Shown here piece after piece: positions 32,686 to 47,685 of a DNA stretch of 64,000 nucleotides (position 1 is the first letter of the stretch; each line of letters opens with the position of its first letter). The position numbers and the translations under genes are program-made. Origin of the DNA: Bacteroidota bacterium. Lineage in GTDB: Bacteria > Bacteroidota > Bacteroidia > UKL13-3. Below the pieces are notes generated by a model. That model was not told the DNA's origin. It was given only the letters and a program-made list of their open reading frames with translations, and did no database searches. The DNA lies in the NCBI GenBank assembly GCA_027488905.1, contig JAIYAT010000010.1, positions 21,061 through 85,060 on the forward strand. Reading direction: 5' to 3'.

Positions 32686-32691
32686 TTTTTA

Positions 32692-33412: not shown

Positions 33413-33487
33413 ACAGTTTTTTGTCTTACTTCTTCAATTATTTTTCGTATTATTTATGTCTATTGAAGTTGAAATTAAGTAAAAAAG

Positions 33488-34261: not shown

Positions 34262-34290
34262 AAGATTACTTTGTTTAGATTATTTTTGCA

Positions 34291-34593: not shown

Positions 34594-34618
34594 TAATAGA
34601 GCTATAAGAAGCGAAATA

Positions 34619-34634
34619 TTTTTTTTTTTTTTTT
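34619..34634. repeat. Homopolymeric T16 (A16 on coding strand) tract
   Basis: Read directly from sequence at 34619-34634, just upstream of the DUF2147-like ORF. Confidence 0.9.
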
Positions 34635-34714
34635 AAAAATTACATAAATTAATGATGCAAATTTATACTCCCAAAGAGGATAAACTCATTAACAAAAGAT
34701 AATAAAGGTTATGA

Positions 34715-35260
34715 TTAATATTTTTTCTTTGAAATACGTTGTCTAATCCTACTCAAAGAAACAGGTGTAATGCCTAACACATTAGCAATGTACTTGTCGG
34801 GTACACGGTTAATCATATTTGGGTAATCTTTAAGATATTGTTGGTATCTCTTTTCAGGGGAGAGAAAAACAAAGGAATCAATTCTTTGAAAAGCTTGTTT
34901 CAAAATTTGTCGACCAAAAATCCTGCTGTCCATTTTTTGAAAGTCTAAATTGTCAGAACTTAAATCTTGAAAAGTTTTTACATCTGTAAAGTACACTTTT
35001 GTTTTCTCCAAAGTTTCAAAGGTAAACTTGGAAGGTTCATCAAATAAAATGGTATGAACATTTCCAAATAGTTGCTTCTCGGCAAACAACTGAAAAGTAA
35101 TTTCCTCACCTTTGTCATTTATCAAAAAACTACGAACCAACCCTTTTCGGATATAGAAGACATTATTTGTTTTATCGCCTTCTTTTATTATACTCTCTCC
35201 TTTATCAAATGTTTTTGAGTTAAGATTTCGTAATAATTTAAAAAGGAATTTTATGTTCAT
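34715..35260 (-). CDS. Crp/Fnr-family transcriptional regulator (start at MNIKF)
   Basis: cNMP-binding-like N-domain and C-terminal HTH (YIANVLGITPVSLSRIRQRI). Confidence 0.65.
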   Translation of the reverse strand: MNIKFLFKLLRNLNSKTFDKGESIIKEGDKTNNVFYIRKGLVRSFLINDKGEEITFQLFAEKQLFGNVHTILFDEPSKFTFETLEKTKVYFTDVKTFQDLSSDNLDFQKMDSRIFGRQILKQAFQRIDSFVFLSPEKRYQQYLKDYPNMINRVPDKYIANVLGITPVSLSRIRQRISKKKY

Positions 35261-35289
35261 TCGTTTTTTTGTTTCTGCGGTAAAATTGT

Positions 35290-35422
35290 GCCTAACGTTT
35301 TGCGGCTTGGCGTAGTGGCGGATTTTTAGCACTAATGCTCATACGAAGAACTGCACTTGAACCTACCACAAAACTGTCATACGAGGCACAGAACTCGCCA
35401 TTACGCCAAACCGCTGTTAGCC
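35290..35422. repeat. attC-like recombination site (family C)
   Basis: GCCTAAC 35290-35296, GTTAGCC 35416-35422; stems TTGGCGTAGTGGCG / CGCCATTACGCCAA; 10/6 asymmetric loop. Confidence 0.6.
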
Positions 35423-35431
35423 ACAGTTATT

Positions 35432-36349
35432 CTAATTCAAATTTCGGAATTCTGTCGGACTTAATCCTACTTTTTTCCTAAACAAACTACTGAAGTAGTG
35501 TGAGTGTTCAAAGCCCAAGGAATAGGCAATTTCTTTTATAGAGTCATCACTACCTAGCAATCGGTCTTTGGCAATTTCCAGAAGGTGAAAGTGAATATGT
35601 TCTTGAGTGGTTTTTCCTGTTTCTTTACGAAGTAAATCACTTAAATAATTGGGGGAAAGATTAACTTGATCCGCACATTGTAATGCTGTCGGAAGCCCTT
35701 TTTCGGGAAGGTTAGCTGAATCAAAGTAGTTTTTTAAATAAGTATTGATAGTATCAATCACCGAATTATTTTCATTTGCTCTGGTAATAAATTGTCGGTC
35801 ATAAAAACGATTACAGTGATTCAATAAATATTCTATTGCGGATATCAATACGTTCTTGGTGTGCTTGTCGATGGGTCGATTGAGTTCAGTTTCTATTGTA
35901 TTGATGATTGACGAAAGGCACACTTTTTCATCTTCGGACAAATGCAATGCTTCGTTCGTGGTGTATTTAAAGAATGAGTATTCAGTAATTTTGTTAAACA
36001 GAGGAGTACCATAAATCAAATCGGGATGAAAGTATAGACCCCAATTATACCTACACTCTTCGAAAACAGGATTTTGAATGGTACTTACTTGTTCAGGTAA
36101 AGAAAAGAACAAGCTACCTTCCTGAAAATCTATTTGCTTTCTGCCATATTGCAAGCTTCCTGACTTCAGATGTTTTAATGTAATTACATAAAACGATGAA
36201 GCCACTTGTAAACCAGTGTGTTGAGATTCCTTCTGATGGTTATCTAATTTTGAAAAATCAATGACACTCACCAAAGGATGCTTCGGTGGGGGGATTTGAA
36301 ACATGTTATGCAACATGCTAATACTTTCGATCCTGATAATATCCTTCAT
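35432..36349 (-). CDS. AraC-family transcriptional regulator
   Basis: C-terminal double HTH (YLSDLLRKETGKT...IAYSLGFEHSHYFSSLFRKKVGLSPTEFR). Confidence 0.8.
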   Translation of the reverse strand: MKDIIRIESISMLHNMFQIPPPKHPLVSVIDFSKLDNHQKESQHTGLQVASSFYVITLKHLKSGSLQYGRKQIDFQEGSLFFSLPEQVSTIQNPVFEECRYNWGLYFHPDLIYGTPLFNKITEYSFFKYTTNEALHLSEDEKVCLSSIINTIETELNRPIDKHTKNVLISAIEYLLNHCNRFYDRQFITRANENNSVIDTINTYLKNYFDSANLPEKGLPTALQCADQVNLSPNYLSDLLRKETGKTTQEHIHFHLLEIAKDRLLGSDDSIKEIAYSLGFEHSHYFSSLFRKKVGLSPTEFRNLN

Positions 36350-36352
36350 TGT

Positions 36353-36838
36353 TTATAAGTTGGATAGTTTTTCAAAATAAGTGTCTATTGATTTTTTTGA
36401 AACGCTTTCAATAATCAGGTTTCCAACCGAAAATATGACCAATGAAAACAGTATTCCTTTTACCAATTCTTTATCAATAAAGAGATTTATAAGCAATGAA
36501 ACAATGATTAATATAACAAGCACAATTTGAATTTTAGGGTGGTTATTTACCACCTTTGCCATTCGTTCCTTTTCTTTTTGATGAAACGTTGCCGAACTTT
36601 CCTTGTATAACAAGGTTTGATTTTTTAGTAATTTTTCTTCTGTCATTTTATACCCAATGCCACTAACAGATGAGAATAATCCAAATATAATCAAACCAAT
36701 TTTCAATCCAATTAATACTGCATTCGACCCGGAAAAATGAATCAGGACAGCCAAAAGTAGCATTATAAAACCCAAAGCCAACATATAGTTGGCAATTGTT
36801 TTTTGGGCGTTAATGTATATTTCCAATTGTTCAAGCAT
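36353..36838 (-). CDS. Hypothetical membrane protein
   Basis: Four hydrophobic segments; no family. Confidence 0.4.
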   Translation of the reverse strand: MLEQLEIYINAQKTIANYMLALGFIMLLLAVLIHFSGSNAVLIGLKIGLIIFGLFSSVSGIGYKMTEEKLLKNQTLLYKESSATFHQKEKERMAKVVNNHPKIQIVLVILIIVSLLINLFIDKELVKGILFSLVIFSVGNLIIESVSKKSIDTYFEKLSNL

Positions 36839-36876
36839 AATTTATTTTTTTAATTTTCGAAGACTGCTGTCCATTC

Positions 36877-37707
36877 TTATTTTATGGATGCGCCCGGCAA
36901 AATTTGGTCTATCAAACCATAACCAAACCATCTTTTCATAAACTTACCCAATTTGCCATCAGCGTTAGGTGCGTATCTTCTTTTTGGAGAACCGCTCTTA
37001 GCTGCATGTAATACGGCTTTTGCAATCGTGTCAGACGAAGCTCCATTTTGGCAACCTTTACTCCAATTTTTCCTGAAATTTTTCATCTGCTCCTTATACG
37101 GTCCGGCATTGGGGTGTTTTTCACACTTATCCAAGTAGGGCAAACTGGCAGTGGGAATATCAGTATTGATGTAGCCCGGCTCGATGAGTGACACTTTAAT
37201 ACCAAATTCTTTGACTTCCATACGTAATCCATCCCCGACACCCTGCTGTGCATGCTTGGTAGCGGGATACCATGCCATACCGGGAGAGCCCATATGCCCC
37301 GCAACTGAGGAAGTAATGATGATTCTACCCGATTTTTGTTTTCTCATGTGGGGTAGCACAGCGGTAAATGCCCGGGCATTGCCTAACACATTGACATCAA
37401 ATTGGTATCTGACATCTTCAATGCTTTGCAACTCTACCGGACCCAAGAGGCAAAACCCGGCATTGGCGAAAAGCACATCGATTCTACCATCATCCTTGAT
37501 AATGGTATCAACTACCTTCTGAATGTCTTCATCCTTTGTTACATCACAAGGCATAACTACTGCTCCCAACACTTCTAAATCTTTCATTAAATGAGTTCTT
37601 CTTGCGGTGGCATATACCTTGAAACCGTTTGCTAATAACATCTTTGCAGATGCGTGACCAATACCGGTTGAAGCTCCAGTAATAAATGCGATTTTTTTAT
37701 TTTCCAT
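36877..37707 (-). CDS. SDR-family short-chain dehydrogenase/reductase
   Basis: TGASTGIG Rossmann motif, catalytic YxxxK (YPATKHA). Confidence 0.85.
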   Translation of the reverse strand: MENKKIAFITGASTGIGHASAKMLLANGFKVYATARRTHLMKDLEVLGAVVMPCDVTKDEDIQKVVDTIIKDDGRIDVLFANAGFCLLGPVELQSIEDVRYQFDVNVLGNARAFTAVLPHMRKQKSGRIIITSSVAGHMGSPGMAWYPATKHAQQGVGDGLRMEVKEFGIKVSLIEPGYINTDIPTASLPYLDKCEKHPNAGPYKEQMKNFRKNWSKGCQNGASSDTIAKAVLHAAKSGSPKRRYAPNADGKLGKFMKRWFGYGLIDQILPGASIK

Positions 37708-37850
37708 TATCTTATCTTTTTTGACGTTTAATAATGGTGCAAATTTAAAATGTCAACCTGTATTACAGATTACACAAATCTCGGATAAGCATTCATTTTT
37801 CTTAGATTGTCTAATAGAGTCTGGTTATTGCGGGTCGCTTTCATAATTGT

Positions 37851-38024
37851 GGCTAACGTTTCGGCGCTTGGCGCAGTAAGGGAATGGTTAGCACAAATTT
37901 TGCCAAGGCACTTTACTCCAAAAATAAACTTTTCTGCCTTTTCTTTTTCCTTTTATTCTAATGCCCTTATTTCGCCAAACGCATTTTATAAGCCGTTTTT
38001 CTTTTCCTTAAAACAGGTGTTAAT
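37851..38024. repeat. attC-like site (family A, long variant with conserved ~100-bp internal segment)
   Basis: Left GGCTAACGTTTCGGCGCTTGGCGCAGTAAGG; internal ccaaaaataaacttttctgcc...ttttattc...gcccttatt; right ...gccaaacgc...; four similar copies in the array. Confidence 0.45.
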
Positions 38025-38538
38025 CAATTTTTTTCAAGCTGTCATTTCCATAATAGTTTTTCTCCCACTCAGAAATATCAACTTTTTCAATTTCTTTTTG
38101 CCTTTTTTTTTCATAATCATTTGCATTAATAACCCCAAATAGAATCCAAAATGTCGTCCCGCCTAAAAGCAAAAAAAGTCGTTGATTAAATTTCTTTTGA
38201 TAGTTCTCCTTTTTAAGTTCACTTAATGAAAGACCAACTGTCCACTGTCTTGCTAGAATAAATGGAGCCATAAGAAAAATATAAATCATTTTTTCTATTG
38301 TATAGCTTTCGGTCTCGTTTTGTTCTAATTTTTTTTGATAAGCTAATTCTAATTTTTCAGCTTTCTTTTTCCATCTGTCTAAAGTCTTATCTTGGTCGTA
38401 TCGGGTAACTTTCCGTTTGTTTAGTTCGTCCTTTGCTTGGTCTATTGCGTCTTGTTGCCAATCATCAATTGTTCCATTTGCAATTGCAATTAGTTCTTCA
38501 GTGTCACGCCTTGAAATTGGTGGATTAAACTCTATCAC
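38020..38538 (-). CDS. Hypothetical membrane protein (cassette ORF)
   Basis: ORF with two central TM helices. Confidence 0.35.
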   Translation of the reverse strand: MIEFNPPISRRDTEELIAIANGTIDDWQQDAIDQAKDELNKRKVTRYDQDKTLDRWKKKAEKLELAYQKKLEQNETESYTIEKMIYIFLMAPFILARQWTVGLSLSELKKENYQKKFNQRLFLLLGGTTFWILFGVINANDYEKKRQKEIEKVDISEWEKNYYGNDSLKKID

Positions 38539-38570
38539 TATGGTATCTTTTAAAATAGCTTAAAACGTTT

Positions 38571-38692
38571 GCCAGCTACGAGAAGTTGGAGCCTGTCAGC
38601 ACAAATATAGTTGCCCAGAACCAATTTCAATTAACCACAAATGTGTCAGCGTAGCGCTGAACCGCCAATTTGTTGTTGGTGCTGTTTTAGGC
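38571..38692. repeat. attC-like site (family C2; left arm degenerate)
   Basis: Right arm aaccacaaatgtgtcagcgtagcgctgaaccgccaatttg...GTTTTAGGC nearly identical to the 43290 copy. Confidence 0.4.
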
Positions 38693-38725
38693 TGTTATTT
38701 TTCATGAAATCATTTGGTCATGTTA

Positions 38726-39238
38726 CTAAATATAATGTACCGATATTCCTTTTGCACTAGATAATTGTCTTAAAATTGTATAAAGTTTATTTTTCTCAAA
38801 ATCGTTGTGGAGATAGATATTCATTTGGTAAGTTTCATTTTTAGAATCGATTATTGAAATCACATTCTTTCTGCCGCTATTAAAAGCACCTAGAACTATT
38901 AGAGTGGAGTTGTTTTCACCAAAGCAACCATCAAAGTGAAAGATTATTTGTTTTGGTTTTATTGTTTTTTTTATATGTGTTAATGTTTCAATTTCAATTT
39001 CATCACTATAAAGATTAATCTGTCCAGTTTTATGTTTGTCCTGAAAAAAAAATCTTAAGAATTTAAGTAATATTATGATAACGAATGTAAATGGACCTAA
39101 AACATAAAAATATTTTTCAACCAAATTTAAATGAAATGATAATAAAATTAGTCCAATACTAAAAAAGCCGATACTAAAAGACCAAATGTTATACTTTATG
39201 TCCTTAGGATTTACGATGTCAAATGTTGCTTTATACAT
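38726..39238 (-). CDS. Hypothetical membrane protein (cassette ORF)
   Basis: ORF, N-terminal TM helices. Confidence 0.35.
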   Translation of the reverse strand: MYKATFDIVNPKDIKYNIWSFSIGFFSIGLILLSFHLNLVEKYFYVLGPFTFVIIILLKFLRFFFQDKHKTGQINLYSDEIEIETLTHIKKTIKPKQIIFHFDGCFGENNSTLIVLGAFNSGRKNVISIIDSKNETYQMNIYLHNDFEKNKLYTILRQLSSAKGISVHYI

Positions 39239-39242
39239 AATA

Positions 39243-39388
39243 GCCTATAACGTTTATACGCTTGGCGCAGTAAAGGAATCGTTGGCTCTTTTTCTCCTCA
39301 ATATGTTACTCCAAAAATAAACTTTTCTGCCGTTTCTTTTCCCTTAAAATCCTCAAGCCGTTATTGCATCCAAACGCGTGTTAGCGGC
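39243..39388. repeat. attC-like site (family A)
   Basis: GCCTATAACgtttatacgcTTGGCGCAGTAAAGG ... CCAAACGCGTGTTAGCGGC; arms pair with 10/6 loop. Confidence 0.5.
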
Positions 39389-39407
39389 TGCTCCTTTTGC
39401 TCAGTGG

Positions 39408-40079
39408 CTATAAGTACATTTTCAAATTTTCGTTTTCATCTGTCTGATACAATTCATTAAGTAATACTTTCATCTGGTCATTATTTTTGAAGTTGTTGCC
39501 TGTAAATTGTTTAATTCTATTTATTACTTCTTCTGAATCCCATGATGCAATATTACTAGCAAATCTTACTACCATCCCATTGCAGCGCATATCAATTGTT
39601 CCACCCTCGGTGACGTATTGAAGTTGTTGTTCTGTAACCCCCAAACCTGTAATGTCAACAGTTCCGTTATCTAAGGGGTGTTTTGTGTAATTATTTTGAC
39701 TGGCAATTTCTAAACTCGAGACTTCGGATATTGAGAATGATTTTGTCTTAATTGATCCAAATTGTTTGTTAATAATAGTAATCTGGTCTTTCGATATTTC
39801 AAGTGATTCCCTATTCAATACTTTCTTTAGATATTCTCTACCAGCAAGTACATATACCACGCATAATGCAATAATTATTATGGCAGCAATGGGAATGTCT
39901 GCAATTAACCTTATTGTAACACTAGTAAGAAATAGTGCGGTAGCGATTAATAATACTCCTTGGAAAATTAGACCAAACTTTATGATTGGACTTACTGATG
40001 GATAAATCTCTATTTTTAGTTTGTCTTTACTTTCAGTAAACTTTAGGGTTTCTTTCATTTTTGATTTAGTAGTGGGCAT
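39408..40079 (-). CDS. Hypothetical membrane protein (cassette ORF; start at MPTTK, ORF track gives 40139)
   Basis: ORF with two TM helices; trimmed so as not to run into the attC-like site. Confidence 0.35.
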   Translation of the reverse strand: MPTTKSKMKETLKFTESKDKLKIEIYPSVSPIIKFGLIFQGVLLIATALFLTSVTIRLIADIPIAAIIIIALCVVYVLAGREYLKKVLNRESLEISKDQITIINKQFGSIKTKSFSISEVSSLEIASQNNYTKHPLDNGTVDITGLGVTEQQLQYVTEGGTIDMRCNGMVVRFASNIASWDSEEVINRIKQFTGNNFKNNDQMKVLLNELYQTDENENLKMYL

Positions 40080-40111
40080 AAACAATGGTTGCACATGGAG
40101 TTGCAGATATC

Positions 40112-40233
40112 GTTTGACAGCTAATCGCAGATGGCCCAATTGCGGACCATTCTTCGTGATAGCAGCTTATCAAATATAGAAAAATTTCGCCTAAGAACAA
40201 CTAGGGCCATTTGTATTTAGGTGATGTTATGCC
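40112..40233. repeat. attC-like site (family B, left end truncated)
   Basis: ...AGCTAATCGCAGATGGCCCAATTGCGGACC ... GGGCCATTTGTATTTAGGTGATGTTATGCC; near-identical to copy at 41599. Confidence 0.4.
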
Positions 40234-40243
40234 TAGTTAATTT

Positions 40244-40915
40244 TTAAAGAATCATTGGTGCCATATTGAAATTTGTGTCTAATTTTTTATTTCCAATGGA
40301 GTCAAACATTTGGAATTTCCCGTTTAATAATGAACCGCCACCTACTTTATTATTATAATAAGGTTTCTTATACAATTTCCAGTTTTCTATAGTATTAATT
40401 TTCCCATTTTTAAAGTAACTTTTAAGGACACCTGATGGCAACCCCGTATTGTAATTATTCAACCGAATATATGTGCCCTCAAACCAAATATTTCCGTTCT
40501 CATATGGTACTTTTACATAGACACTATCCTCGTATATAATGATACCTTTCAGAGCAAATGCTTTAGTATAGTATGGATGAGTGTTGTTAAAATATTCTGG
40601 AATAACTGACCATTGTATCTTGCCATTTTTAAAAAGAGCTAATGAAACTAATTTGTTCTTTTGTGAGAAATGGAATATTTTGGAAATACTATCTAGCTCA
40701 TTGTCTTTATAAAATACTTCTCTGATTTCATTATTTAAAGAGTCATTTATTTTCCATAATCCTTGTTTTAATCCTTTTTCATCTATAAAGTTAATTTCAG
40801 TCTTTATTTTAATATTACTTATTGAATCGGCAATTGGAATTTGTTGATTTTTAGCGTCCTTTCCTTGGTTAAAACAAGAGGAAATGAATAATATTATTAT
40901 GTAATGAAATTTCAT
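40244..40915 (-). CDS. Lipoprotein with MORN-variant (YwqK-like) repeats
   Basis: Lipobox SSC; repeated ...KNGKI...G.W..Y..NG units. Confidence 0.45.
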   Translation of the reverse strand: MKFHYIIILFISSCFNQGKDAKNQQIPIADSISNIKIKTEINFIDEKGLKQGLWKINDSLNNEIREVFYKDNELDSISKIFHFSQKNKLVSLALFKNGKIQWSVIPEYFNNTHPYYTKAFALKGIIIYEDSVYVKVPYENGNIWFEGTYIRLNNYNTGLPSGVLKSYFKNGKINTIENWKLYKKPYYNNKVGGGSLLNGKFQMFDSIGNKKLDTNFNMAPMIL

Positions 40916-40924
40916 CTTATAAAT

Positions 40925-41080
40925 TGGGCATTACGCTGTTTGTGTTCTTGGCGCAGTAAGGGAATGGTTACCACAAATTCGCTCAAGCACTTTACCCCAA
41001 AAATAAACTTTTCTGCCGTTACTTTTTCCTTTTATTCCAATGCCCTTATTGTGTCAAACGTGTCTTATGTGCTGTTATTT
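40925..41080. repeat. attC-like site (family A)
   Basis: gggcattacgctgtttgtgttcTTGGCGCAGTAAGG ... internal conserved block ... gtcaaacgtgtcttatgtgctgtt. Confidence 0.45.
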
Positions 41081-41578
41081 TTGCATGATTACATTTCTTT
41101 CTAGCTCTTTAAATAATGTCCACATATTTGTGACTTTGTTATAAAAGAACTTAGTTACTCGAACGTCCATTAAGGCTTGAGTTTGAAACAAAAAGTCCGA
41201 ATAAATGTCTTCTCTCCATTGAACAATATCTCCACTAATTATGACTTCTATTGTGTCGGTTTTTAGTACTTTGCGATAAATATTGTAAATGTATCTGCCG
41301 CTGTCCGCATTGTCTCCTTGGCATATGGCTTGTCTTGGTGTCTGATGTGCAATGAACCTAAAATGGTTTTGCCCGACTTTTCCATTTAGTAAAGTGGAAT
41401 CCAAGTCTGTCCGCATAATAATATAGCCATACCTCTTTTGGTCTTGATGGATAGATGAGTCAGAAAAATATTTTCTAATTGTCATATTATAAAGTCTTGA
41501 CAAATCTTTTTCAGTAGGCTTTTGACCAAAAGAAATTGTTGCCAACAAGATTGCTAGAATTAACATAAATTTAGGCAT
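41075..41578 (-). CDS. Hypothetical secreted protein (cassette ORF)
   Basis: Signal peptide MPKFMLILAILLATISFG. Confidence 0.35.
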   Translation of the reverse strand: MPKFMLILAILLATISFGQKPTEKDLSRLYNMTIRKYFSDSSIHQDQKRYGYIIMRTDLDSTLLNGKVGQNHFRFIAHQTPRQAICQGDNADSGRYIYNIYRKVLKTDTIEVIISGDIVQWREDIYSDFLFQTQALMDVRVTKFFYNKVTNMWTLFKELERNVIMQK

Positions 41579-41598
41579 ATTTTGTCGTCATTATAATA

Positions 41599-41732
41599 GC
41601 CACTAACGTTTAATTGCTAACCGCAGATGGCCCAATTGCGGACCATTCTTCATGATAGCAGCTTATCAAATATAGAAAATTATTCATAGCGAACAACCGA
41701 AGGGCCATTTGCGGTTAGGTGTTGTTAGCGGC
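41599..41732. repeat. attC-like site (family B, complete)
   Basis: GCCACTAACgtttaattGCTAACCGCAGATGGCC ... GGCCATTTGCGGTTAGGtgttGTTAGCGGC, clear inverted arms. Confidence 0.5.
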
Positions 41733-41780
41733 TGTTTTTTCTTTATTCCGAAGGTGTGTTGTTGAATGCACACACATAGT

Positions 41781-42368
41781 TTATTCAATGTTTGATAAAT
41801 CTAAATAATCTCCGCTGTCATGCCCTATGGCTACAAATAATTTCTCATTGCTTGTCAAAAAGAGTTTCCTGTTGAGTTTCGTTCTGATAATTTCATCAAA
41901 TGTCAACGAACAATAAGCTAGCGGTAAAATCCAGTCGAGGAATTCATAATTGTCTTTGTCAGTTCTTGCTATGTCTTCAATTTGTTGTAGCAAAGTTGGC
42001 TGAGCATAACTATTCTCTGGAACATAAATTGGGTCTAAAGCCCAATCTAAATCATCCTTTTCATACTTGTCCGCACCTGCTAAATAAATTGTTGGAATTT
42101 CTTTTTCATTATCCTCAAATTTTATAATACCTATCCAAAGCGCAACAACACTGCTTGGAAGCGGCGAGATTGTTACAAGATTTTGAAGCCATTCAAGAAT
42201 ATCTGCTTGTTCTTTGTCAATATCTAAATTTCGCAAGGCAGTCCAGTAAGGTTTAGGATTTGTGCTTTCGTGATTGTCAATAAAACTATTCCAAGCATCT
42301 TTTGCAGTTAGTTTTGCAGCGAAAATCGATGTCAAGCTATCCCAAGATTTGTCATGTTGAAATTCCAT
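41781..42368 (-). CDS. Hypothetical cytoplasmic protein (cassette ORF)
   Basis: ORF only. Confidence 0.35.
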   Translation of the reverse strand: MEFQHDKSWDSLTSIFAAKLTAKDAWNSFIDNHESTNPKPYWTALRNLDIDKEQADILEWLQNLVTISPLPSSVVALWIGIIKFEDNEKEIPTIYLAGADKYEKDDLDWALDPIYVPENSYAQPTLLQQIEDIARTDKDNYEFLDWILPLAYCSLTFDEIIRTKLNRKLFLTSNEKLFVAIGHDSGDYLDLSNIE

Positions 42369-42418
42369 ATCAGTTTTTTTCTGCTATCAGTTTAATGTTT
42401 GCACGATGATCCTATAAT

Positions 42419-42565
42419 AGCCGCCAATGTTTGTGTTCTTGGCGCAGTAAGGGAATGATTAGCACAAATTTCGCTCTTGCGCTTTAAGCCAAAAATAAAC
42501 TTTTCTGCCTTTTCTTTTTCCTTTTATTCTTAAGCCCTTATTGCCGCCAAACGCGTGTCGGCAGT
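42419..42565. repeat. attC-like site (family A)
   Basis: tagccgccaatgtttgtgttcTTGGCGCAGTAAGG ... gccgccaaacgcgtgtcggcag. Confidence 0.45.
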
Positions 42566-42573
42566 AGTGCTTA

Positions 42574-42993
42574 TTAGTCGGGTTTATTATTTTCCCAATA
42601 TTCTTTTGGTGTTACAATTTTGGTCTTTTTATAGGTCGAAAATGTAAAGTCATTTGTATTTCCAGTAATAACAAAGTTGGCTATGCTTTCGTCAGCAAGT
42701 TCCAAAATTTTATTATCATCAACATCAGAAATCAAGTCAAGTTTTATTCTCGGATGAAATTTAGTTGCCCTACTTTCAATATCCACAAGAAGAGATTCTG
42801 CCCGTATAAAAAAGTCTTGAAATTTCGCAAACTTTGGTCGAGCTAACACCTCATAATACTCGGCCATTAATTCTTCAGAAATACATAGTTGGAACTTGTT
42901 CTCCAGAAAAAGGTCGTTAATAATCTGGTTTGGATAACTTTTTTGAATTAAAGCTGAAACAATAACATTCGTGTCAATTACGATTTTTTGCAT
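42574..42993 (-). CDS. vapC: PIN-domain toxin (VapC-like)
   Basis: N-terminal IVIDTNVIVSAL with acidic residues spaced as in PIN domains; 139 aa. Confidence 0.7.
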   Translation of the reverse strand: MQKIVIDTNVIVSALIQKSYPNQIINDLFLENKFQLCISEELMAEYYEVLARPKFAKFQDFFIRAESLLVDIESRATKFHPRIKLDLISDVDDNKILELADESIANFVITGNTNDFTFSTYKKTKIVTPKEYWENNKPD

Positions 42994-43225
42994 TATGTCT
43001 AACAGCTTTTACTTCATTTGTTATTTCGTCAATATCCATATTAGAAAGACCATATTTTTCAGCGAGCTGAATGCATTTGTTTAGATTTTGACGAGTCAAT
43101 TCTTTACTCACAAGGTCGATAAAGTCTGTAAAATTTAGGTTGTCGTTTTTAATGCCGAATTTACTATACTCAAGGTCGGATATTGAAATATTCAAGGTTC
43201 TCATTTTTTTTATATCTATATTCAA
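42974..43225 (-). CDS. Putative antitoxin partner of the PIN toxin
   Basis: 83-aa ORF overlapping the PIN gene start by 20 nt. Confidence 0.45.
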   Translation of the reverse strand: MNIDIKKMRTLNISISDLEYSKFGIKNDNLNFTDFIDLVSKELTRQNLNKCIQLAEKYGLSNMDIDEITNEVKAVRHNAKNRN

Positions 43226-43289
43226 AAATAAGAAAAAATATTTGGGTTTAAGAAGGTCTTATTTTTTTGCAAATTTAAATAGCATTACT

Positions 43290-43419
43290 GCCAACGTTTT
43301 CGGGCTTGGCGAAGGTGGCGATTTTCACCACAAATGTTGATGCGGAAAACCAAACTTTGATTAACCACAAATGTGTCTGCGGAGCACTGAACCGCCACTT
43401 TTGCCAAACCCGTGTTACC
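43290..43419. repeat. attC-like site (family C2)
   Basis: GCCAACgttttcgggcTTGGCGAAGGTGGCG ... CGCCACTTTTGCCAAacccgtGTTACCT; 10/6 loop. Confidence 0.5.
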
Positions 43420-43429
43420 TGCTGCCCTT

Positions 43430-44248
43430 TTAGTTTTCATTCGTTATAAGTGAAAATTTTCCGTTGTTTAGTAAGGTCTTGATGTTGTCTAAAATTTGGT
43501 TGGGTGCGTAATAGTTTGGATGACTTTGAAAAATAGCAGCGTCATTCATTATAGCTTCTATTTCTTGTTTTGTCTGCTCTACTTGTCCCTTGTCGGCAAA
43601 TTTAAGGGAATTGGGTTTGAACCAATCCACTTCAATACAATAGTTGATTTGCTTTGAACAACGACAAGGATTTTTGGGGTCATAAATACCACATTGTTTT
43701 GCCATAAAAGCCCTTATTTGTTGTCGTGCTAAGGAAAGTCTTTTTCTGAACGTTGTTGGTTCAATGTCAAGAATGTATGCCCCTTCATTACTGTCAAACT
43801 CCAAGATTTCTCCAACCAAATATGCCAAACGTAACGTTCTCGACACACAAATTAGCATACTAGTACTACAAGCAATTTTTACTTCTTCTTCCAATAAGTT
43901 TGCATCGGCTTTTTCGTAGGCTGGGTAAGTTGCACCAACTTTAAGATGGTACTCGCCTTCTTCAAAGGTGAGGTTTTCAATTTCGGTTCTTTTCATATTC
44001 AGCAAATAGTTAGTTGCTACCCTATACACCCAGGTGGTAAAGCTACTTTCACCTTTGAATTTGGAAAGGTTGGTCAACACCTTCAAAAGAATTTCTTGTG
44101 TAGCATCTTCCGCATCCATCGGATTCCAGAGGTAACGAACAGATAAATTGTATACATTTCGCTGAATGCACCTTATCAGTATTTCAATGGATTTTTTATC
44201 ACCATTCAGGCAATTCTCTATGAGTTCTATGTAGTTTATTTTTTCCAT
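43430..44248 (-). CDS. Sigma-70-family (ECF-like) sigma factor with ~90-aa Cys-containing C-terminal extension
   Basis: Region 2 (DAEDATQEILLKVLTNLSKFKGESSFTTWVYRVATNYLLN), region 4 HTH, then CGIYDPKNPCRCSKQINYC extension. Confidence 0.65.
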   Translation of the reverse strand: MEKINYIELIENCLNGDKKSIEILIRCIQRNVYNLSVRYLWNPMDAEDATQEILLKVLTNLSKFKGESSFTTWVYRVATNYLLNMKRTEIENLTFEEGEYHLKVGATYPAYEKADANLLEEEVKIACSTSMLICVSRTLRLAYLVGEILEFDSNEGAYILDIEPTTFRKRLSLARQQIRAFMAKQCGIYDPKNPCRCSKQINYCIEVDWFKPNSLKFADKGQVEQTKQEIEAIMNDAAIFQSHPNYYAPNQILDNIKTLLNNGKFSLITNEN

Positions 44249-44278
44249 TCTCCGAACCAGTACTTATTAAATACAAAA

Positions 44279-44629
44279 CTAAGTAGCATAATAGAATTTT
44301 TCTTTCACTATCAAACCATTTTCCCAATGTCTTACTGCTACTTCAGGATAAATAATTTTTTCGCTCTGCTCATTGGTATAATCAAAAAGGACTTCCTGAA
44401 TGCTCAGATTTTCACCATACGCCACGCTTAAAACTTTGAGTTTTAAGTCGGGAAATGCCTCTACAAAACCACCACACTGTTCACGATTGAAGTATTTGCC
44501 CACTCGTGGTTCGGTTTCGTTTTCCTGCATCGTTATATTTTCAGCATAGAAAAGCTCAAATGCTTCCATTGCTTTACCTTGCTCAATCATTGTGTTGAGC
44601 TGCTCATTGTTGTGTTTAAAATTACTCAT
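44279..44629 (-). CDS. NTF2/SnoaL-like small protein
   Basis: 116 aa, composition and C-terminal W..G.I.KE.FYY pattern typical of SnoaL-like folds. Confidence 0.4.
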   Translation of the reverse strand: MSNFKHNNEQLNTMIEQGKAMEAFELFYAENITMQENETEPRVGKYFNREQCGGFVEAFPDLKLKVLSVAYGENLSIQEVLFDYTNEQSEKIIYPEVAVRHWENGLIVKEKFYYAT

Positions 44630-44649
44630 TTTTTAAAATTTCGATGTGA

Positions 44650-45300
44650 TTAATTAAAAGTTTTTCGCAGAAATAAACCAGCATTCGGGTTGAATGTTGT
44701 TTCCAATTCATTGCTAACAGGGTTTCTAAATGTCGGTATTTGCGTGTCGCACCCAATGCCAAACTGAAATCCTTTATGCTCAAGTCCGAGCCTTATTTGC
44801 TGAAAACTGAAGTTGTGTTGCTGGAAATTAAAGTTAGTGCTAAAAGTGAGTTGAGAAAAGAATTTCAGTTTTTTAGTCAATTTAGGGTTATACACTAAAA
44901 GTCCAAACATTTCGTAGTTTGGTTTATTGGTCAATTCAATGGTCGGGAAAACATTAAGGTACAAGTCTCCTTTTTCATTGAAGTATTGCAAAGAAATTGC
45001 TGCAATTGGAACAAAGCCTTGATTTGTCATATACCCCCCCGTTGCAACACCAACGTATTGATTAAAATTAAACGTTGCAACAGAGTAAATAAATGGGTCA
45101 ACTGTTGACCTATCCTTGTAGTCAACAGTAAAATAAGTCAGGTTAAAAAAGCTGACGATACCAAGAGAGTCAATGGGTTTAGAAATAAGGATTTCGTGTT
45201 GAGCCTTTTTGTGTCCGCCAAAGACTTCGCCATAAATGATTTGTGCTTGCAAGGTCTGGCTTAGAAATGCCAAAATGAGAATTAAGAAAATTTGCTTCAT
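44650..45300 (-). CDS. Hypothetical outer-membrane beta-barrel protein (start at MKQIF; ORF track gives 45492)
   Basis: Signal peptide then beta-rich sequence ending in F. Confidence 0.4.
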   Translation of the reverse strand: MKQIFLILILAFLSQTLQAQIIYGEVFGGHKKAQHEILISKPIDSLGIVSFFNLTYFTVDYKDRSTVDPFIYSVATFNFNQYVGVATGGYMTNQGFVPIAAISLQYFNEKGDLYLNVFPTIELTNKPNYEMFGLLVYNPKLTKKLKFFSQLTFSTNFNFQQHNFSFQQIRLGLEHKGFQFGIGCDTQIPTFRNPVSNELETTFNPNAGLFLRKTFN

Positions 45301-45519
45301 ACTTGTCTGAATAAACTGTTTTGTCCATTTGACACAATTCAACCTACAAGTGTGAAGTGAAATTTGAAATTTTTTTGAGGTTTGTCGTTTAGGGTTGCAG
45401 GTAACTCTTTTACTTGCGAAGCAAAATACTAAATTAAGGTTAATTATTGTGAAATTGCCGATGGAAATTATCGTTTTATTGAAAGTTAGCAATTGATTAA
45501 TTTAGGTTCAGAAAGGCTC

Positions 45520-45756
45520 CTAACTCTCCAATACACCCGCACTCACACCCACACTCTTGCTCACACTCACACTCTTGCTTTTCACTCTTTCTCTTCCCTC
45601 TTTCTCTTCCCTCTTTTTCTTCCCTCTTGCTCCATACTGCTTATGTACCCCGCAATCAGTTTGGAGTGTGAGTCTTGAGCAAGAGTTTACGCACTTAATG
45701 AGAGTCTTCCAAAGCACTCTTTCTCCTCCCTCTTGCTCCATACTGCTTAGGTACCC
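45520..45756. repeat. Polypyrimidine (CT / CA-CT) low-complexity tract with ~45-bp internal direct repeat
   Basis: cactcacacccacactcttgctcacactcacactc... ctctttctcttccct units; ctcttgctccatactgctta(t/g)gtacccc occurs twice. Confidence 0.8.
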
Positions 45757-45758
45757 CC

Positions 45759-46022
45759 TTGGATTATCGTGATTACCCCCTTGGATTAACATGGACACCC
45801 GCTTGGATTAACATGGTTACCCCCTTGGATTAACATGGTTACCCCCTTGGATTAACATGGGTACCCGCTTGGATTAACATAGGTACCCGCTTGGATTAAC
45901 ATGGGTACCTGCTTGGATTAACATGGGTACCCCCTTGGATTAACATGGGTACCTGCTTGGATTAACATAGGTACCCGCTTGGAGCATCGTGGGTACCCCC
46001 TTGGTGTAACATATATAAGAAG
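45759..46022. repeat. 22-bp tandem direct repeat, ~12 copies (consensus TTGGATTAACATGGGTACCCSC), iteron-like
   Basis: Units begin at 45759, 45781, 45803 ... 46001 with exact 22-bp phasing; terminal copies degenerate. Confidence 0.9.
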
Positions 46023-46125: not shown

Positions 46126-46962
46126 TTATAAGCCGATTTTACTGAAAAATTTAAATGGTATTACCTGATGATGTTCTGAACTGGTTCTGCCAAATGTACC
46201 ACGGATATTTGCTTTCACTTGGCGGCCTAATATGATGATTCCGTTTTCTTCATTATAAAATAGTACATCGCGTTTGTGACGCGCATAGGTTAGGGTATTC
46301 TCTAAAGCATTTACCTCATCATTTATCTGCTCCAATTTTAACTGATAGGCTTTTAGGGCTGCTATCTCGAGTTCGCTTTGGTTGGGTTTATAATTGGGTA
46401 TCATTTCTAGAAACTCAATAAACTGCAAAAAGTCTTCTGCTCTTTTTTCTAAGGTAAGATAGGCTCCTATGTGTTTGCTTGGTTTAGACTCACCTGTTTC
46501 AGCGGGTGCCGATTGCTTTTTGTTATAGCCCTTAATTTGTTTAACCACCAAGTATAGGTCATGGTAAAGGCTTTTGTCTACCCCCTGCGATTGCAGCATG
46601 TCTAGTATCCTACTGAGCATCTGGTTTTGGTCCTTGAATAGGTTCAACCTACGCGTAGTGGCATTTAAATAATCCGTTTCTGCATCACTTACCTTTTTAA
46701 TGGCCATTCGACTCTGTGAAAGGAAGTCTTCCAGAGTGGCTAGGCTTAGGTTGGGGTTAGAAGGGTTGTAGGCGGTACCGAATTTCTTCACTACATCAAT
46801 CAAACCAGAGAAATTGTTCATTTTAGCTGTAAAGCTAGATAGATTGTGCTTGTTCATATTTTTATGTATTAATAATGACACTGCAAGTATTGACATAAAA
46901 GGCTGAACAGTAAAGGCTAAATAGTTTGATATTACGCAGATACAAGCTATGTTCTTGCGCAA
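46126..46962 (-). CDS. Hypothetical protein adjacent to the 22-bp repeat array (start uncertain)
   Basis: ORF only; no tyrosine-recombinase or Rep motifs recognised. Confidence 0.4.
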   Translation of the reverse strand: MRKNIACICVISNYLAFTVQPFMSILAVSLLIHKNMNKHNLSSFTAKMNNFSGLIDVVKKFGTAYNPSNPNLSLATLEDFLSQSRMAIKKVSDAETDYLNATTRRLNLFKDQNQMLSRILDMLQSQGVDKSLYHDLYLVVKQIKGYNKKQSAPAETGESKPSKHIGAYLTLEKRAEDFLQFIEFLEMIPNYKPNQSELEIAALKAYQLKLEQINDEVNALENTLTYARHKRDVLFYNEENGIIILGRQVKANIRGTFGRTSSEHHQVIPFKFFSKIGL

Positions 46963-47145: not shown

Positions 47146-47685
47146 CTACTCCAACTCCCTTTTCTCAGCTGCCCTTTTTATTTCAAACAAACCTTCCTCA
47201 AAACCAGCCTCAGTTGATTTAATCTTGGAAGGGAGCATAAACCTAAAAATTGGGTTATAACCCACATCGCCAGAATCTACCCAAATTAGGTGCGTTTTAT
47301 TGGCCACAGGCTTAAAGTAAAAAGTAGCTTCGGAATGCATGGTGCCTTCATTGATGCTTAAATCATAATGAATCATTTCATTTTGTTGGCTCTTAGTTAT
47401 TTTAAACCTTCCAATCCCTACTAGGCCACCTCTAAAATACTGGGCCGCCCCTTGGCCGCTCTTCACTTTGCTATAAAAGCTAACCATAGAACTGTCTAGT
47501 TGGGTATTCCACGGACTCCAATCGGCCCAATTGCGAATGCTGTTCATGTAGGCATAAGTTTCATATACAGGCTTGTTAATAACCGTGCTGCGCTCTATAC
47601 GGTAGGTTTTAGGAAAAAGCAAGGAAACCAAAAACACCAATCCAACTAATCCTAAGATGGCCGCAAATATTCCAAATAATTTCAT
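47146..47685 (-). CDS. SRPBCC-superfamily (polyketide-cyclase-like) protein with N-terminal anchor
   Basis: N-terminal TM helix plus SRPBCC-like length and pattern. Confidence 0.5.
   Translation of the reverse strand: MKLFGIFAAILGLVGLVFLVSLLFPKTYRIERSTVINKPVYETYAYMNSIRNWADWSPWNTQLDSSMVSFYSKVKSGQGAAQYFRGGLVGIGRFKITKSQQNEMIHYDLSINEGTMHSEATFYFKPVANKTHLIWVDSGDVGYNPIFRFMLPSKIKSTEAGFEEGLFEIKRAAEKRELE

What the first reader, a model, noticed from the sequence alone, without database searches (positions are those of the whole stretch)
43430..45300. Three-gene cassette: OMP, SnoaL-like protein, then a sigma factor with Cys-rich C-terminal extension
The first cassette encodes, in order, a signal-peptide beta-barrel protein, a ~116-aa NTF2/SnoaL-like protein and a sigma-70 region2/region4 protein with a ~90-aa C-terminal extension containing CxxxxxxxCxC and a further Cys. 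ECF groups 41 and 56 carry a fused SnoaL-like C-terminal regulatory domain. Here the SnoaL-like module is a separate upstream gene and the sigma has a different Cys-bearing tail. This may be a split or alternative version of a C-terminally regulated ECF sigma, mobilised as a cassette.
Basis: partly seen in the sequence, partly recalled or inferred. Interest (0 to 1): 0.6.

Follow-up and report, generated by a model that had tools for sequence, protein, structure and literature searches.

The report
Self-regulated ECF sigma operon on integron cassette
A 2.1-kb integron gene cassette carries a complete stress-response unit: its own promoter, an outer-membrane barrel, a small SnoaL-like protein, and a sigma factor from a widespread, unstudied family whose cysteine-bearing tail probably acts as a built-in sensor.

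Summary
On the minus strand lie an OMP-like gene (45300-44650), a 116-aa NTF2/SnoaL-like gene (44629-44279) and a 272-aa ECF sigma gene (44248-43430).

- **Cassette.** They form one 2,110-bp integron cassette (45404-43295). It starts at a GTTACCT core site that matches the reverse complement of its own attC R'' box.
- **Sigma family.** More than 1,300 database homologs span many phyla. Five cysteines are invariant or nearly so: C127 and C134 in sigma-4, and C186-x8-C195-x-C197 just after it. An ~87-aa tail follows. AlphaFold predicts a compact shape like anti-sigma-bound ECFs.
- **Promoter.** 68 of 80 related loci carry TCACA-N16/17-GTCTAA upstream of the operon. This equals the ECF41 promoter (TGTCACA-n16-CGTC). 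The window's copy lies inside the cassette.
- **Neighbours.** Across the family the partner gene varies: SnoaL-like (some with signal peptides), Atu1531-like, alpha/beta hydrolase, cupin. They look like targets, not regulators.

"C-terminally regulated ECF, mobilised as a cassette" is supported. "Split ECF41/56 with SnoaL as the detached regulator" is not. The closest catalogued groups appear to be ECF287/288 and CorE-like ECF238. I rate it a new variant of a known kind, of moderate interest.

The parts
43295..45404 (-). Integron cassette 1 (2,110 bp): 5' leader with promoter, three genes and the attC
   Evidence: The cassette's first 13 nt, counted from the G of the core site at 45405 (GTTACCTGCAACC), match the reverse complement of its own attC R'' region (GTTACCTGCTGCC) at 11 of 13 positions. 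Three other cassettes checked in the array show the same relation at 11 of 12-13, and a fourth is close. Metagenome contigs carrying the identical sigma break within about 45 bp after its stop.
45399..45405 (-). 5' core recombination site GTTACCT (crossover expected between G and TT)
   Evidence: Similarity among related modules in other genomes begins at this element, and the DNA upstream of it is unrelated between genomes. The upstream 100 nt do not fold like an attC.
45328..45357 (-). ECF-type promoter TTCACAC-N-GTGTCAAA (-35 TTCACA, -10 GTGTCAA), 28 nt upstream of the OMP ATG
   Evidence: The motif is conserved at the same place in orthologous operons. 68 of 80 family loci have it, with a 16-17 nt spacer in 66 of those 68. 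There are only 16 reverse-strand matches in 764 kb. It equals the ECF41 motif (PMC3426412).
44650..45300 (-). 216-aa outer-membrane beta-barrel-like protein with a signal peptide
   Evidence: AlphaFold gives a signal-like helix plus about 12 strands at pLDDT 68. Foldseek matches NanC, PcoB and KdgM-type porins. Only 14 homologs were found, all at least 58% identical.
44279..44629 (-). 116-aa NTF2/SnoaL-like protein, no signal peptide
   Evidence: It lies immediately upstream of the sigma gene in most close relatives; in L002 and L004 a tandem-SnoaL gene sits between the two. Invariant residues are Y28, M34-Q35-E36-N37, P41, G44-K45 and W102.
43430..44248 (-). 272-aa ECF sigma factor with a C-terminal extension
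   Evidence: The AlphaFold model has pLDDT 90 and pTM 0.88.
43985..44179 (-). Sigma-2 domain (residues 24-88)
   Evidence: Pfam Sigma70_r2, E 1.6e-13.
43694..43903 (-). Sigma-4 domain (residues ~116-185), with C127 (43868-43870) and C134 (43847-43849) on its first helix
   Evidence: The family profile aligns with AlgU and RpoE up to residue 182. C127 is invariant and C134 is present in at least 90% of sequences. Helices 116-134 and 164-185 appear in the model.
43433..43693 (-). C-terminal extension (residues 186-272), starting with C186-G-x7-C195-x-C197
   Evidence: C186, C195 and C197 are invariant. DSSP marks bridge (E) residues at 186 and 195 in the model, consistent with a short hairpin between them. 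No Pfam family matches. The tail was found only at the C-terminus of this sigma family, or in fragments starting at internal Met residues.
43289..43424 (-). attC site of cassette 1 (R'' AGGTAAC at 43420-43414; R' GTTGGCA at 43295-43289)
   Evidence: It aligns with seven other attC sites of the array. The R/L boxes pair in the single-strand fold. The box motifs were located.

Best explanation
The region is a self-contained, self-activating ECF sigma operon packaged as one integron cassette.

1. The sigma factor belongs to a large family that lacks an anti-sigma partner.
2. In this family an ~87-residue C-terminal tail is joined to sigma-4 through five conserved cysteines: C127 and C134 on the first sigma-4 helix, and C186, C195 and C197 at the start of the tail.
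3. I propose that these cysteines bind a metal ion or an iron-sulfur cluster. This would hold the tail against sigma-2 and sigma-4 in a closed form that cannot bind RNA polymerase.
4. Oxidation, thiol-reactive compounds or a change in metal loading would open the protein.
5. The sigma then transcribes from the TTCACA-N17-GTGTCAA promoter just upstream of the OMP gene. This raises its own level and that of the two effector proteins, an outer-membrane barrel and a cytoplasmic SnoaL-like enzyme or binding protein.
6. Because promoter, effectors and sigma all lie between the cassette's core site and its attC, the unit can be moved by an integron integrase. It would be expressed independently of its position in the array.

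Shown by computation: gene identities, family breadth, cysteine invariance, the conserved promoter, the compact model, the cassette boundaries.

Inferred: metal or cluster binding, the direction of regulation, the nature of the signal, the effector role of the two upstream genes, and current mobility.
For: - **Family.** There are 1,361 full-length homologs and at least 497 genome loci in Bacteroidota, Chloroflexota, Actinomycetota, Myxococcota, Acidobacteriota, Leptospira and Bacillota.
- **Cysteines.** C127, C186, C195 and C197 are invariant and C134 is nearly so in 86 sequences. None of them is present in AlgU.
- **Model.** pLDDT is 90 and pTM 0.88. DSSP bridge residues at 186 and 195 are consistent with a hairpin between them. 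The best structural matches are the compact anti-sigma-bound forms SigW-RsiW (target TM 0.80) and CnrH-CnrY (0.77). SigG1 also matches (query TM 0.45-0.49). Polymerase-bound ECFs give only about 0.3.
- **Tail.** It is never seen outside this sigma family.
- **Promoter.** 68 of 80 loci have it, the spacer is 16-17 nt, and flanking positions that the search did not constrain are also conserved. It precedes whichever gene is first in the operon. Some loci have a second copy in front of the downstream neighbour (L014, L021, L065).
- **Neighbours.** They vary by subclade and include proteins with signal peptides.
- **Precedents.** CorE and CorE2 are activated by metal through a Cys-rich tail (PMC3107203). 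OrbS is inhibited by Fe(II) through its tail (PMC9023288). In ECF41 the neighbouring COE gene is the sole target (PMC3426412).
- **Cassette.**
Against: - No coordinates were available, so distances between the cysteines could not be measured.
- Metal or cluster binding is untested.
- In CorE, removing the Cys-rich domain abolishes activity rather than releasing it. The tail may therefore be needed for activity instead of inhibiting it.
- AlphaFold may favour compact states.
- No integrase was found in the window, so present-day mobility is unproven.
- Close relatives carry the SnoaL-sigma pair in ordinary chromosomal settings without an attC.
- The substrates of the OMP and the SnoaL-like protein are unknown.
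Confidence: 0.5

Rival explanations
1. CorE-like activation. The cysteine site must bind a specific metal ion for the sigma to work, and the tail is a required co-domain rather than an inhibitor. The operon would then be a metal-responsive unit.
For: - The C-x8-CxC motif directly after sigma-4 resembles the invariant C184-x7-C192-x-C194 of CorE-like sigmas.
- Deleting the CorE Cys-rich domain abolishes activity.
- NCBIfam SigZ models give partial matches. SigZ is placed in the CorE-containing group ECF238 (PMC7826278).
- One Foldseek match of the OMP model is the copper transporter PcoB.
Against: - The extension is 87 aa, against 20-38 aa in CorE-like sigmas.
- The CxC motif in the sigma-2/sigma-4 linker that characterises CorE-like sigmas (PMC8999054) is absent.
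- Neighbouring genes across the family are small-molecule-handling folds, not metal-homeostasis genes.
- The predicted conformation is the closed one.
Confidence: 0.2
2. The cysteines form a purely structural zinc site. The sigma is controlled only through its level, by the self-activating loop and outside transcriptional inputs, with no on-board sensing.
For: - Invariant cysteine clusters are often structural zinc sites.
- No ligand or signal is indicated by the sequence.
- Studies of ECF41 found no phenotype or inducing signal (PMC3426412).
Against: - A positive self-activating loop with no restraint would run constitutively.
- Groups that lack anti-sigma factors generally use their extensions for control (PMC7826278).
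- The compact model resembles inhibited states.
Confidence: 0.15
3. One reading: the 116-aa SnoaL-like protein is a separate regulatory subunit that binds the sigma. It would be a split form of the fused SnoaL domain of ECF41/56, or an unconventional anti-sigma.
For: - In the close relatives examined the SnoaL-like gene always lies upstream of the sigma gene in the same operon. Matching contig lengths suggest the pairing extends to sigma homologs of about 45-58% identity.
- The protein has no signal peptide.
- The promoter is ECF41-like.
- NTF2-like neighbours occur in at least 19 of 80 loci.
Against: - The neighbour families are heterogeneous, and several carry signal peptides, so they cannot meet a cytoplasmic sigma.
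- They are often replaced by unrelated folds.
- There is no similarity to the SigJ or SigG1 SnoaL domains.
- In L002 and L004 another gene lies between SnoaL and sigma.
- In ECF41 the adjacent gene had no regulatory role.
- The sigma already has its own conserved tail.
Confidence: 0.1
4. The three genes are not a cassette but an ordinary chromosomal operon that happens to adjoin an attC array. The match between its 5' end and the attC would then be coincidence or a conserved regulatory element.
For: - No integrase was found in the window.
- The ACCTGCAACC element upstream is also conserved in relatives that lack an attC, so it could be a functional cis-element.
- Three genes in one cassette is unusual.
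Against: - The 11 of 13 complementarity is close to the value seen for the other cassettes of the array. These include another three-gene cassette (AraC, unknown, SDR).
- The attC starts 10 nt after the stop codon.
- The module sits among different genes in every genome examined.
- A metagenome contig has the same genes and the same upstream flank, but different DNA starting 12 nt after the stop.
Confidence: 0.05

Closest known systems
ECF41 sigma factors (Ecf41Bli, Ecf41Rsp, M. tuberculosis SigJ)
   Same: - No anti-sigma factor.
- Regulation by a C-terminal extension that keeps the protein compact.
- A single local operon target, often arranged as target gene then sigma gene.
- An essentially identical promoter, TGTCACA-n16-CGTC.
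   Different: - The ECF41 extension is a ~100-aa or longer SnoaL_2 domain. Here it is an 87-aa cysteine-bearing domain with no Pfam match.
- ECF41 targets are COE enzymes. Here they are NTF2-like, Atu1531-like, hydrolase, cupin and OMP genes.
- SigJ was not hit by the family profile.
ECF56 (Streptomyces tsukubaensis SigG1, PDB 7qh5)
   Same: - A compact sigma-2/sigma-4 arrangement similar to the model (query TM 0.45-0.49).
- A C-terminal extension.
- Weak sequence similarity (E 1e-10).
   Different: SigG1 has a fused SnoaL_2 domain. The window's sigma lacks a SnoaL domain.
CorE and CorE2 of Myxococcus xanthus (former ECF44, now in ECF238)
   Same: - No anti-sigma factor.
- Cysteine motif immediately after sigma-4 ending in CxC: CorE C184-x7-C192-x-C194, here C186-x8-C195-x-C197.
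- The cysteines control activity.
   Different: - The CorE domain is 38 aa, and ECF238 extensions are about 20 aa. Here the extension is 87 aa with extra helices and strands.
- The CorE-type CxC in the linker is absent. Instead two cysteines lie on the first sigma-4 helix.
- SigZ family models score far below their cut-offs (36-39 bits against 169-212).
ECF287 (Actinobacteria) and ECF288 (Firmicutes), defined only bioinformatically
   Same: - Described as having Cys-rich C-terminal extensions and no anti-sigma factor.
- The ECF288 motif CGxxGxGxCxC resembles the CG-x7-CxC found here.
- The family found here includes Nocardia, Pseudonocardia and Bacillota members. The cited ECF287 example is from Nocardia seriolae.
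   Different: - Those groups were reported as restricted to a single phylum and small (55 and 74 proteins). The family here spans at least eight phyla.
- Membership could not be tested because the ECF Hub models and the paper's supplement were not available.
OrbS of Burkholderia cenocepacia
   Same: An ECF sigma with an on-board sensor: a C-terminal cysteine cluster that blocks polymerase binding when loaded with Fe(II).
   Different: - Different motif (C-x2-C-x3-C-x5-C).
- Short tail.
- It belongs to the FecI-like group ECF243.
- It has an iron-uptake regulon.
Integron gene cassettes in attC clusters lacking an integrase (CALIN)
   Same: - An attC with R''/L''/L'/R' boxes.
- An array of at least eight attC sites in one orientation.
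- The cassette's 5' end is complementary to its own R''.
- No integrase nearby, as in a CALIN (PMC9024848).
   Different: - Typical cassettes hold one promoterless gene. This one holds three genes, its own promoter and the sigma factor that reads it.
- Integron elements were reported as very rare in Bacteroidetes.

Membership tests
ECF (group 4) sigma-70 factors | [quoted passage not shown] | tested here: met
   Pfam Sigma70_r2 matches at E 1.6e-13. TIGR02937 sigma70-ECF scores above its cut-off (47.2 against 42.9). The family profile aligns over residues 3-182 with AlgU, RpoE and SigW.
ECF41 / ECF56 | Fused C-terminal SnoaL_2 domain | tested here: not met
   No SnoaL-type hit was found on the sigma. 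The tail is 87 aa with a mixed helix and short-strand pattern.
ECF41 | Target promoter TGTCACA-n16-CGTC upstream of the operon | tested here: met
   TCACA-N16/17-GTC(T/C)AA is present in 68 of 80 loci and in the window at 45355-45329. The published motif was read.
ECF41 | Adjacent COE gene (carboxymuconolactone decarboxylase, oxidoreductase or epimerase) | tested here: not met
   The recurrent neighbour clusters are NTF2-like, Atu1531-like, alpha/beta hydrolase, cupin, DUF1304 and OMP genes. Many single neighbours were not scanned.
ECF238 (CorE-like) | Short (20-38 aa) Cys-rich extension with invariant CxxC-x7-CxC | tested here: inconclusive
   C-x8-CxC is present at the equivalent place. There is no CxxC, and the extension is 87 aa.
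ECF238 (former ECF44) | CxC motif in the sigma-2/sigma-4 linker | tested here: not met
   The linker (residues 89-115) has no cysteine. The cysteines are at positions 13, 27, 127, 134, 186, 195, 197 and 204.
ECF287 / ECF288 | Assignment by the ECF Hub group models; Cys-rich C-terminal extension | not testable with these tools
   The models and the supplement are not held. The motif resemblance and the Nocardia and Bacillota members are suggestive only.
ECF with a canonical separate anti-sigma factor | Co-transcribed gene with an anti-sigma domain next to the sigma gene | tested here: not met
   An attC follows the sigma gene directly. No conserved downstream partner exists across 80 loci. No anti-sigma Pfam family was found among the ten neighbour representatives scanned.
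NTF2-like / SnoaL superfamily (the 116-aa protein) | Sequence match to SnoaL-type families or to solved NTF2-like folds | tested here: met
   The window protein is sub-threshold. Its homologs carry PF07366, PF12680 and PF20409. The family profile hits 3hk4 and limonene epoxide hydrolase.
Outer-membrane beta-barrel protein | Signal peptide, all-beta antiparallel barrel, aromatic C-terminus | tested here: met
   The N-terminus MKQIFLILILAFLSQTLQAQ looks like a signal peptide. The model has about 12 strands. All top fold matches are OM barrels, though with weak E-values of 3e-3 and above. The C-terminus is ...RKTFN, with Phe next to last.
Integron gene cassette | Ends with an attC (imperfect inverted repeat with R''/L''/L'/R' boxes) | tested here: met
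Integron gene cassette | 5' boundary at a GTT core site whose following bases are complementary to the cassette's own R'' | tested here: met
   The match is 11 of 13, close to the values for four other cassettes of the array.
Complete integron | An IntI tyrosine recombinase and attI next to the first cassette | tested here: not met
   None of the 30 larger ORFs scanned across the window has an integrase domain. The region upstream of the cassette holds tandem repeats and a 278-aa ORF with no Pfam match.

The most novel reading that the evidence does not exclude
The cassette may be a portable, orthogonal gene switch: a sigma factor, its private promoter and its effectors move together through integron recombination. 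The sigma would be self-inhibited by a five-cysteine metal or iron-sulfur site that joins sigma-4 to a previously undescribed C-terminal domain.

Nearly identical modules exist with an attC, with a different sequence at the attC position, and with no attC. All share the same left end. This locus could therefore capture how integron cassettes are born or decay.
Probability: 0.3. Interest if true: 0.7.

Novelty: new variant of a known kind. Interest (0 to 1): 0.48.

Why it matters
**For sigma-factor biology.** The work defines a very widespread ECF family with no anti-sigma partner. No experimental work on it turned up in my literature searches. The family offers a concrete, testable sensor site: two cysteines in sigma-4 plus CG-x7-CxC. 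It has a promoter shared with ECF41 and a simple one-operon regulon. That makes it an easy system for asking how on-board extensions control ECF sigmas.

**For integron biology.** The cassette shows that an array can carry a multi-gene unit with its own regulator and promoter, free of the array promoter. This occurs in a phylum where integron elements were reported as rare. Attachment-site-free copies of the same module share its left end in other genomes. They give material for the open question of how cassettes originate.

Tried and rejected
- **ECF Hub classification.** The models and Supplementary Text S2 of Casas-Pastor 2021 are not held. Only main-text descriptions could be used.
- **Complex modelling.** Modelling the three proteins together was not possible with the single-chain tool.
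- **Model coordinates.** They are not exposed, so distances between cysteines could not be measured.
- **Tail-only search.** This search looked for stand-alone or differently fused copies. The short hits all begin at internal methionines of the sigma (M182, M131) and look like truncated gene calls.
- **Atu1531-like neighbour cluster.** I tested whether it is NTF2-like. Profile comparison gave 0.1% probability, and it hits PDB 2qpv instead.
- **Second attC upstream of the cassette.** Box-motif scans found none above 43.4 kb. The 100 nt upstream of the core site fold no better than shuffled sequence.
- **Integrase.** None of the 30 ORFs scanned has an integrase domain.
- **attC remnants in relatives.** No full site was found. 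Only a TAAC remains at the same distance after the stop codon in some relatives.
- **Second promoter-like match.** The match at 55757 has a 15-nt spacer and lies inside a gene, so it is probably chance.
Full report
**1. The observation**

All features lie on the minus strand.
- An ORF encodes a 216-aa protein from ATG 45300 to 44650. The mechanical ORF extends upstream to TTG 45492.
- A 116-aa ORF follows at 44629-44279.
- A 272-aa ORF follows at 44248-43430.
- The gaps between them are 20 and 30 nt, so the three genes form a tight operon.

*Sigma.* The 272-aa protein matches Pfam Sigma70_r2 (E 1.6e-13) and the general ECF model TIGR02937 above its cut-off. A profile of the family aligns over residues 3-182 with AlgU, E. 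coli RpoE and SigW, so region 4 is present. About 87 residues follow it.

*SnoaL-like protein.* The 116-aa protein is just below the Pfam SnoaL and SnoaL_2 cut-offs. Its 61 homologs carry those domains and are named NTF2 family or ester cyclase by their sources. The family profile hits PDB 3hk4 (E 1e-7) and limonene-1,2-epoxide hydrolase (E 6e-5). From memory, 3hk4 is a SnoaL-like protein from a structural-genomics project.

*OMP.* The 216-aa protein matches no family and has only 14 close homologs. Its AlphaFold model (pLDDT 68) has a signal-like helix followed by about 12 antiparallel strands. Every leading Foldseek match is an outer-membrane barrel; NanC scores best, with TM 0.52-0.58.

- The motif is C186-x8-C195-x-C197, not C-x7-CxC.
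- C204 is not conserved.
- Two further family-conserved cysteines, C127 and C134, lie in sigma-4.

**2. The sigma family**

The full-length protein, tail included, has 1,361 homologs at E ≤ 1e-5. At least 497 loci occur in species-representative genomes of Bacteroidota, Chloroflexota, Actinomycetota (Nocardia, Pseudonocardia), Myxococcota, Acidobacteriota, Leptospira, Bacillota and others.

In an 86-sequence alignment C127, C186, C195 and C197 are invariant and C134 is present in at least 90%. C127 and C134 lie seven residues apart on the first sigma-4 helix. C186 ends the last sigma-4 helix.

The AlphaFold model is confident (pLDDT 90, pTM 0.88). DSSP marks bridge residues at 186 and 195, consistent with a short hairpin between them.

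Its overall shape matches compact, anti-sigma-bound ECFs: SigW-RsiW (target TM 0.80), CnrH-CnrY (0.77) and RpoE-NepR (0.67). It also matches SigG1 (query TM 0.45-0.49). It matches polymerase-bound ECFs poorly, at about 0.3.

A whole-library HMMER search with the tail alone found it only at the C-terminus of ~265-290-aa sigmas, or in fragments that begin at conserved internal methionines. The tail is therefore specific to this family.

**3. The promoter**

Upstream of the first gene of the operon, the window and its relatives share TTCACAC-N13-TGTGTCAA.

A relaxed pattern, TCAC[ACG]-N15-19-GTC[TCA]A, gave the following results across the 80 fetched loci.
- It occurs on the coding strand within 1,250 bp upstream of the sigma gene in 68 loci.
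- Only 16 reverse-strand matches occur in 764 kb.
- The spacer is 16-17 nt in 66 of the 68.
- Positions the pattern did not constrain are also conserved: G before TCACA in 49 of 68, and A after GTCNA in 65 of 68.

This is the ECF41 promoter, TGTCACA-n16-CGTC (PMC3426412).

The motif precedes whichever co-directional gene comes first. In some loci a second copy precedes the gene downstream of sigma.

In the window the motif lies at 45355-45329, 28 nt before ATG 45300. That position supports ATG 45300 as the OMP start.

**4. The neighbouring genes**

I extracted and clustered the adjacent co-directional genes of the 80 loci.

| Neighbour type | Loci | Evidence |
|---|---|---|
| OMP plus 116-aa SnoaL | closest relatives only (L002-L004; L001 has SnoaL without OMP) | |
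| Tandem-SnoaL protein of ~306 aa | L002, L005-L008 | |
| Single SnoaL immediately downstream of sigma | L048, L061, L076 | |
| DUF4440/SnoaL_2 proteins, several with clear signal peptides | 7 loci | |
| ~135-aa family hitting PDB 2qpv (Atu1531), not NTF2-like | 13 loci | |
| Alpha/beta hydrolases | 5 loci, including Nocardia | |
| Cupin | one locus (L020) | |
| DUF1304 | Leptospira (L059, L068) | |

From memory, 2qpv has a Bet v1-like fold.

No anti-sigma domain appears among the neighbour representatives scanned. In the window an attC directly follows the sigma gene.

This pattern parallels ECF41, where the adjacent COE gene is the sole target and has no regulatory role. It argues that the OMP and the SnoaL-like protein are effectors.

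The exported NTF2-like neighbours could not regulate a cytoplasmic sigma. The 116-aa protein shows no similarity to the SigJ or SigG1 SnoaL domains. The sigma core scores much higher with AlgU (93 bits) than with SigG1 (44 bits), and SigJ is not hit.

**5. The cassette**

At least eight attC sites in one orientation lie between 33.3 and 43.4 kb, plus a ninth partial site (R''/L'' half only) near 32.5 kb. Two of them fold as long imperfect hairpins with z-scores of -3.0 and -3.7.

In this array each cassette's first bases after the G of the preceding GTT match the reverse complement of its own R'' box. Three other cassettes checked match at 11 of 12-13 positions, and a fourth is close. These include another three-gene cassette (AraC, unknown, SDR; about 37856-35296).

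The same relation holds for GTTACCTGCAACC at 45405 and the R'' region after the sigma gene, GGCAGCAGGTAAC, at 11 of 13.

The cassette is therefore 45404-43295, 2,110 bp, and it includes the promoter.

Nothing attC-like lies upstream. None of the 30 ORFs scanned has an integrase domain. The array is therefore a cluster of attC sites lacking an integrase, within this window (concept from PMC9024848).

**6. The module elsewhere**

Close relatives, with sigmas 80-86% identical, carry the SnoaL-sigma pair with the same promoter. Each sits among different chromosomal genes, without the OMP and without an attC.

L002-L004 keep the OMP. L002 and L004 add a tandem SnoaL gene.

Aligning the upstream regions shows that similarity among genomes starts at the TTACCTGCAACC element, which is the cassette's left end. 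Upstream of it the sequences are unrelated.

Downstream, several relatives keep a TAAC at the same distance after the stop codon and then diverge.

One metagenome contig has the identical sigma protein, the same gene order and the same upstream flank as the window. Its DNA differs from the window starting 12 nt after the stop. Three other contigs encoding the identical sigma end inside the attC.

These facts suggest a discrete unit that has moved or been fixed at several sites. This is an inference.

**7. Mechanism**

The best-supported reading is an ECF with no anti-sigma partner, controlled by its own tail.
1. The five cysteines most likely bind a metal ion or cluster that ties the tail to sigma-4 and holds the closed form.
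2. Chemical change at that site would open the protein.
3. The sigma would then drive its own operon from the cassette-borne promoter.

The direction of control is uncertain. CorE needs its cysteine domain for activity, whereas Fe(II) bound by the OrbS tail inhibits it.

**8. Comparison with known groups, and verdict**

In behaviour the family resembles ECF41 (promoter, single operon, no anti-sigma). It also resembles CorE, CorE2 and OrbS (on-board cysteine sensor).

It is not a member of ECF41/56, because it has no SnoaL domain. It fails two defining features of CorE-like sigmas: extension length and the linker CxC.

The main text of the ECF reclassification describes ECF287 (Actinobacteria; the cited example is from Nocardia) and ECF288 (Firmicutes; motif CGxxGxGxCxC) as Cys-rich-extension groups. 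Those are the likeliest catalogued relatives, but this could not be tested.

No experimental study of the family was found. No report of an ECF sigma in an integron cassette was found either.

The finding is a new variant of a known kind, of moderate interest.

Noticed in passing
window 32350-43440 (minus strand): An integron-type array of at least eight attC sites, plus a ninth partial one near 32.5 kb, sits in a Bacteroidota-like chromosome (GC ~36%, and a protein with a T9SS sorting domain at 15441-16451). No integrase was found in the window. Cassettes include a PIN/VapB-like toxin-antitoxin pair (42574-43225), a fatty-acid hydroxylase, a cNMP-binding protein and several proteins of unknown function. 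Integron elements were reported as rare in Bacteroidetes (PMC9024848).
   Followed up: partly
window 35296-37856 (minus strand): A second three-gene cassette encodes an AraC-family regulator, a 161-aa protein of unknown function and a short-chain dehydrogenase. Its boundaries fit the same R'/R'' rule (11 of 13).
   Followed up: partly
window 45542-46012: Dense tandem repeats lie between the cassette's left end and the next gene: 22 bp x 12 (GGTACCCATGTTAATCCAAGCG, each with a KpnI-like palindrome), 13 bp x 4.7 and 18 bp x 2. They occur nowhere else in the window. The region could be an attI-like or protein-binding region. The adjacent 278-aa ORF (46126-46962) has no Pfam match.
   Followed up: partly
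window 40108-40183 and 41604-41679: Two 76-nt copies of another repeat are 92% identical and lie inside the array. They are distinct from the main attC type. They may be a second, shorter class of attachment site or a small mobile element.
   Followed up: no
L081 (metagenome contig) 2016-2062, against window 43383-43429: The contig encodes the identical sigma protein and the same gene order, and shares the window's upstream flank. Its sequence diverges from the window 12 nt after the sigma stop (GCAGC|TTGTAACATTCATCC... against GCAGC|AGGTAACACGGG...). This suggests a different attachment site or downstream context in another population.
   Followed up: partly
L048, L061, L076 (about 800-1200 nt after the sigma start): In these family members a 130-aa SnoaL-type gene starts 3 nt after the sigma stop. 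This near-fusion arrangement is the opposite gene order to the window.
   Followed up: no
L014, L021, L042, L065 (about 810-855 nt after the sigma start): A second copy of the family promoter motif lies just after the sigma gene. In L014, L021 and L065 it precedes a downstream gene. The local regulon therefore sometimes has two promoters.
   Followed up: no
window 55733-55757 (minus strand): A promoter-like match (TCACAG-N-GTCTA, with a spacer of only 15 nt) lies inside the 3' end of a phosphoglucose-isomerase-like gene, upstream of a CpsB/CapC-like gene. It is probably chance.
   Followed up: no
window 47146-47685 (minus strand): Just outside the cassette lies a Polyketide_cyc2 protein with an N-terminal hydrophobic segment. 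From memory this family has the SRPBCC fold, which would make it the same broad class as the Atu1531-like neighbours of other family members. No family promoter motif precedes it.
   Followed up: no
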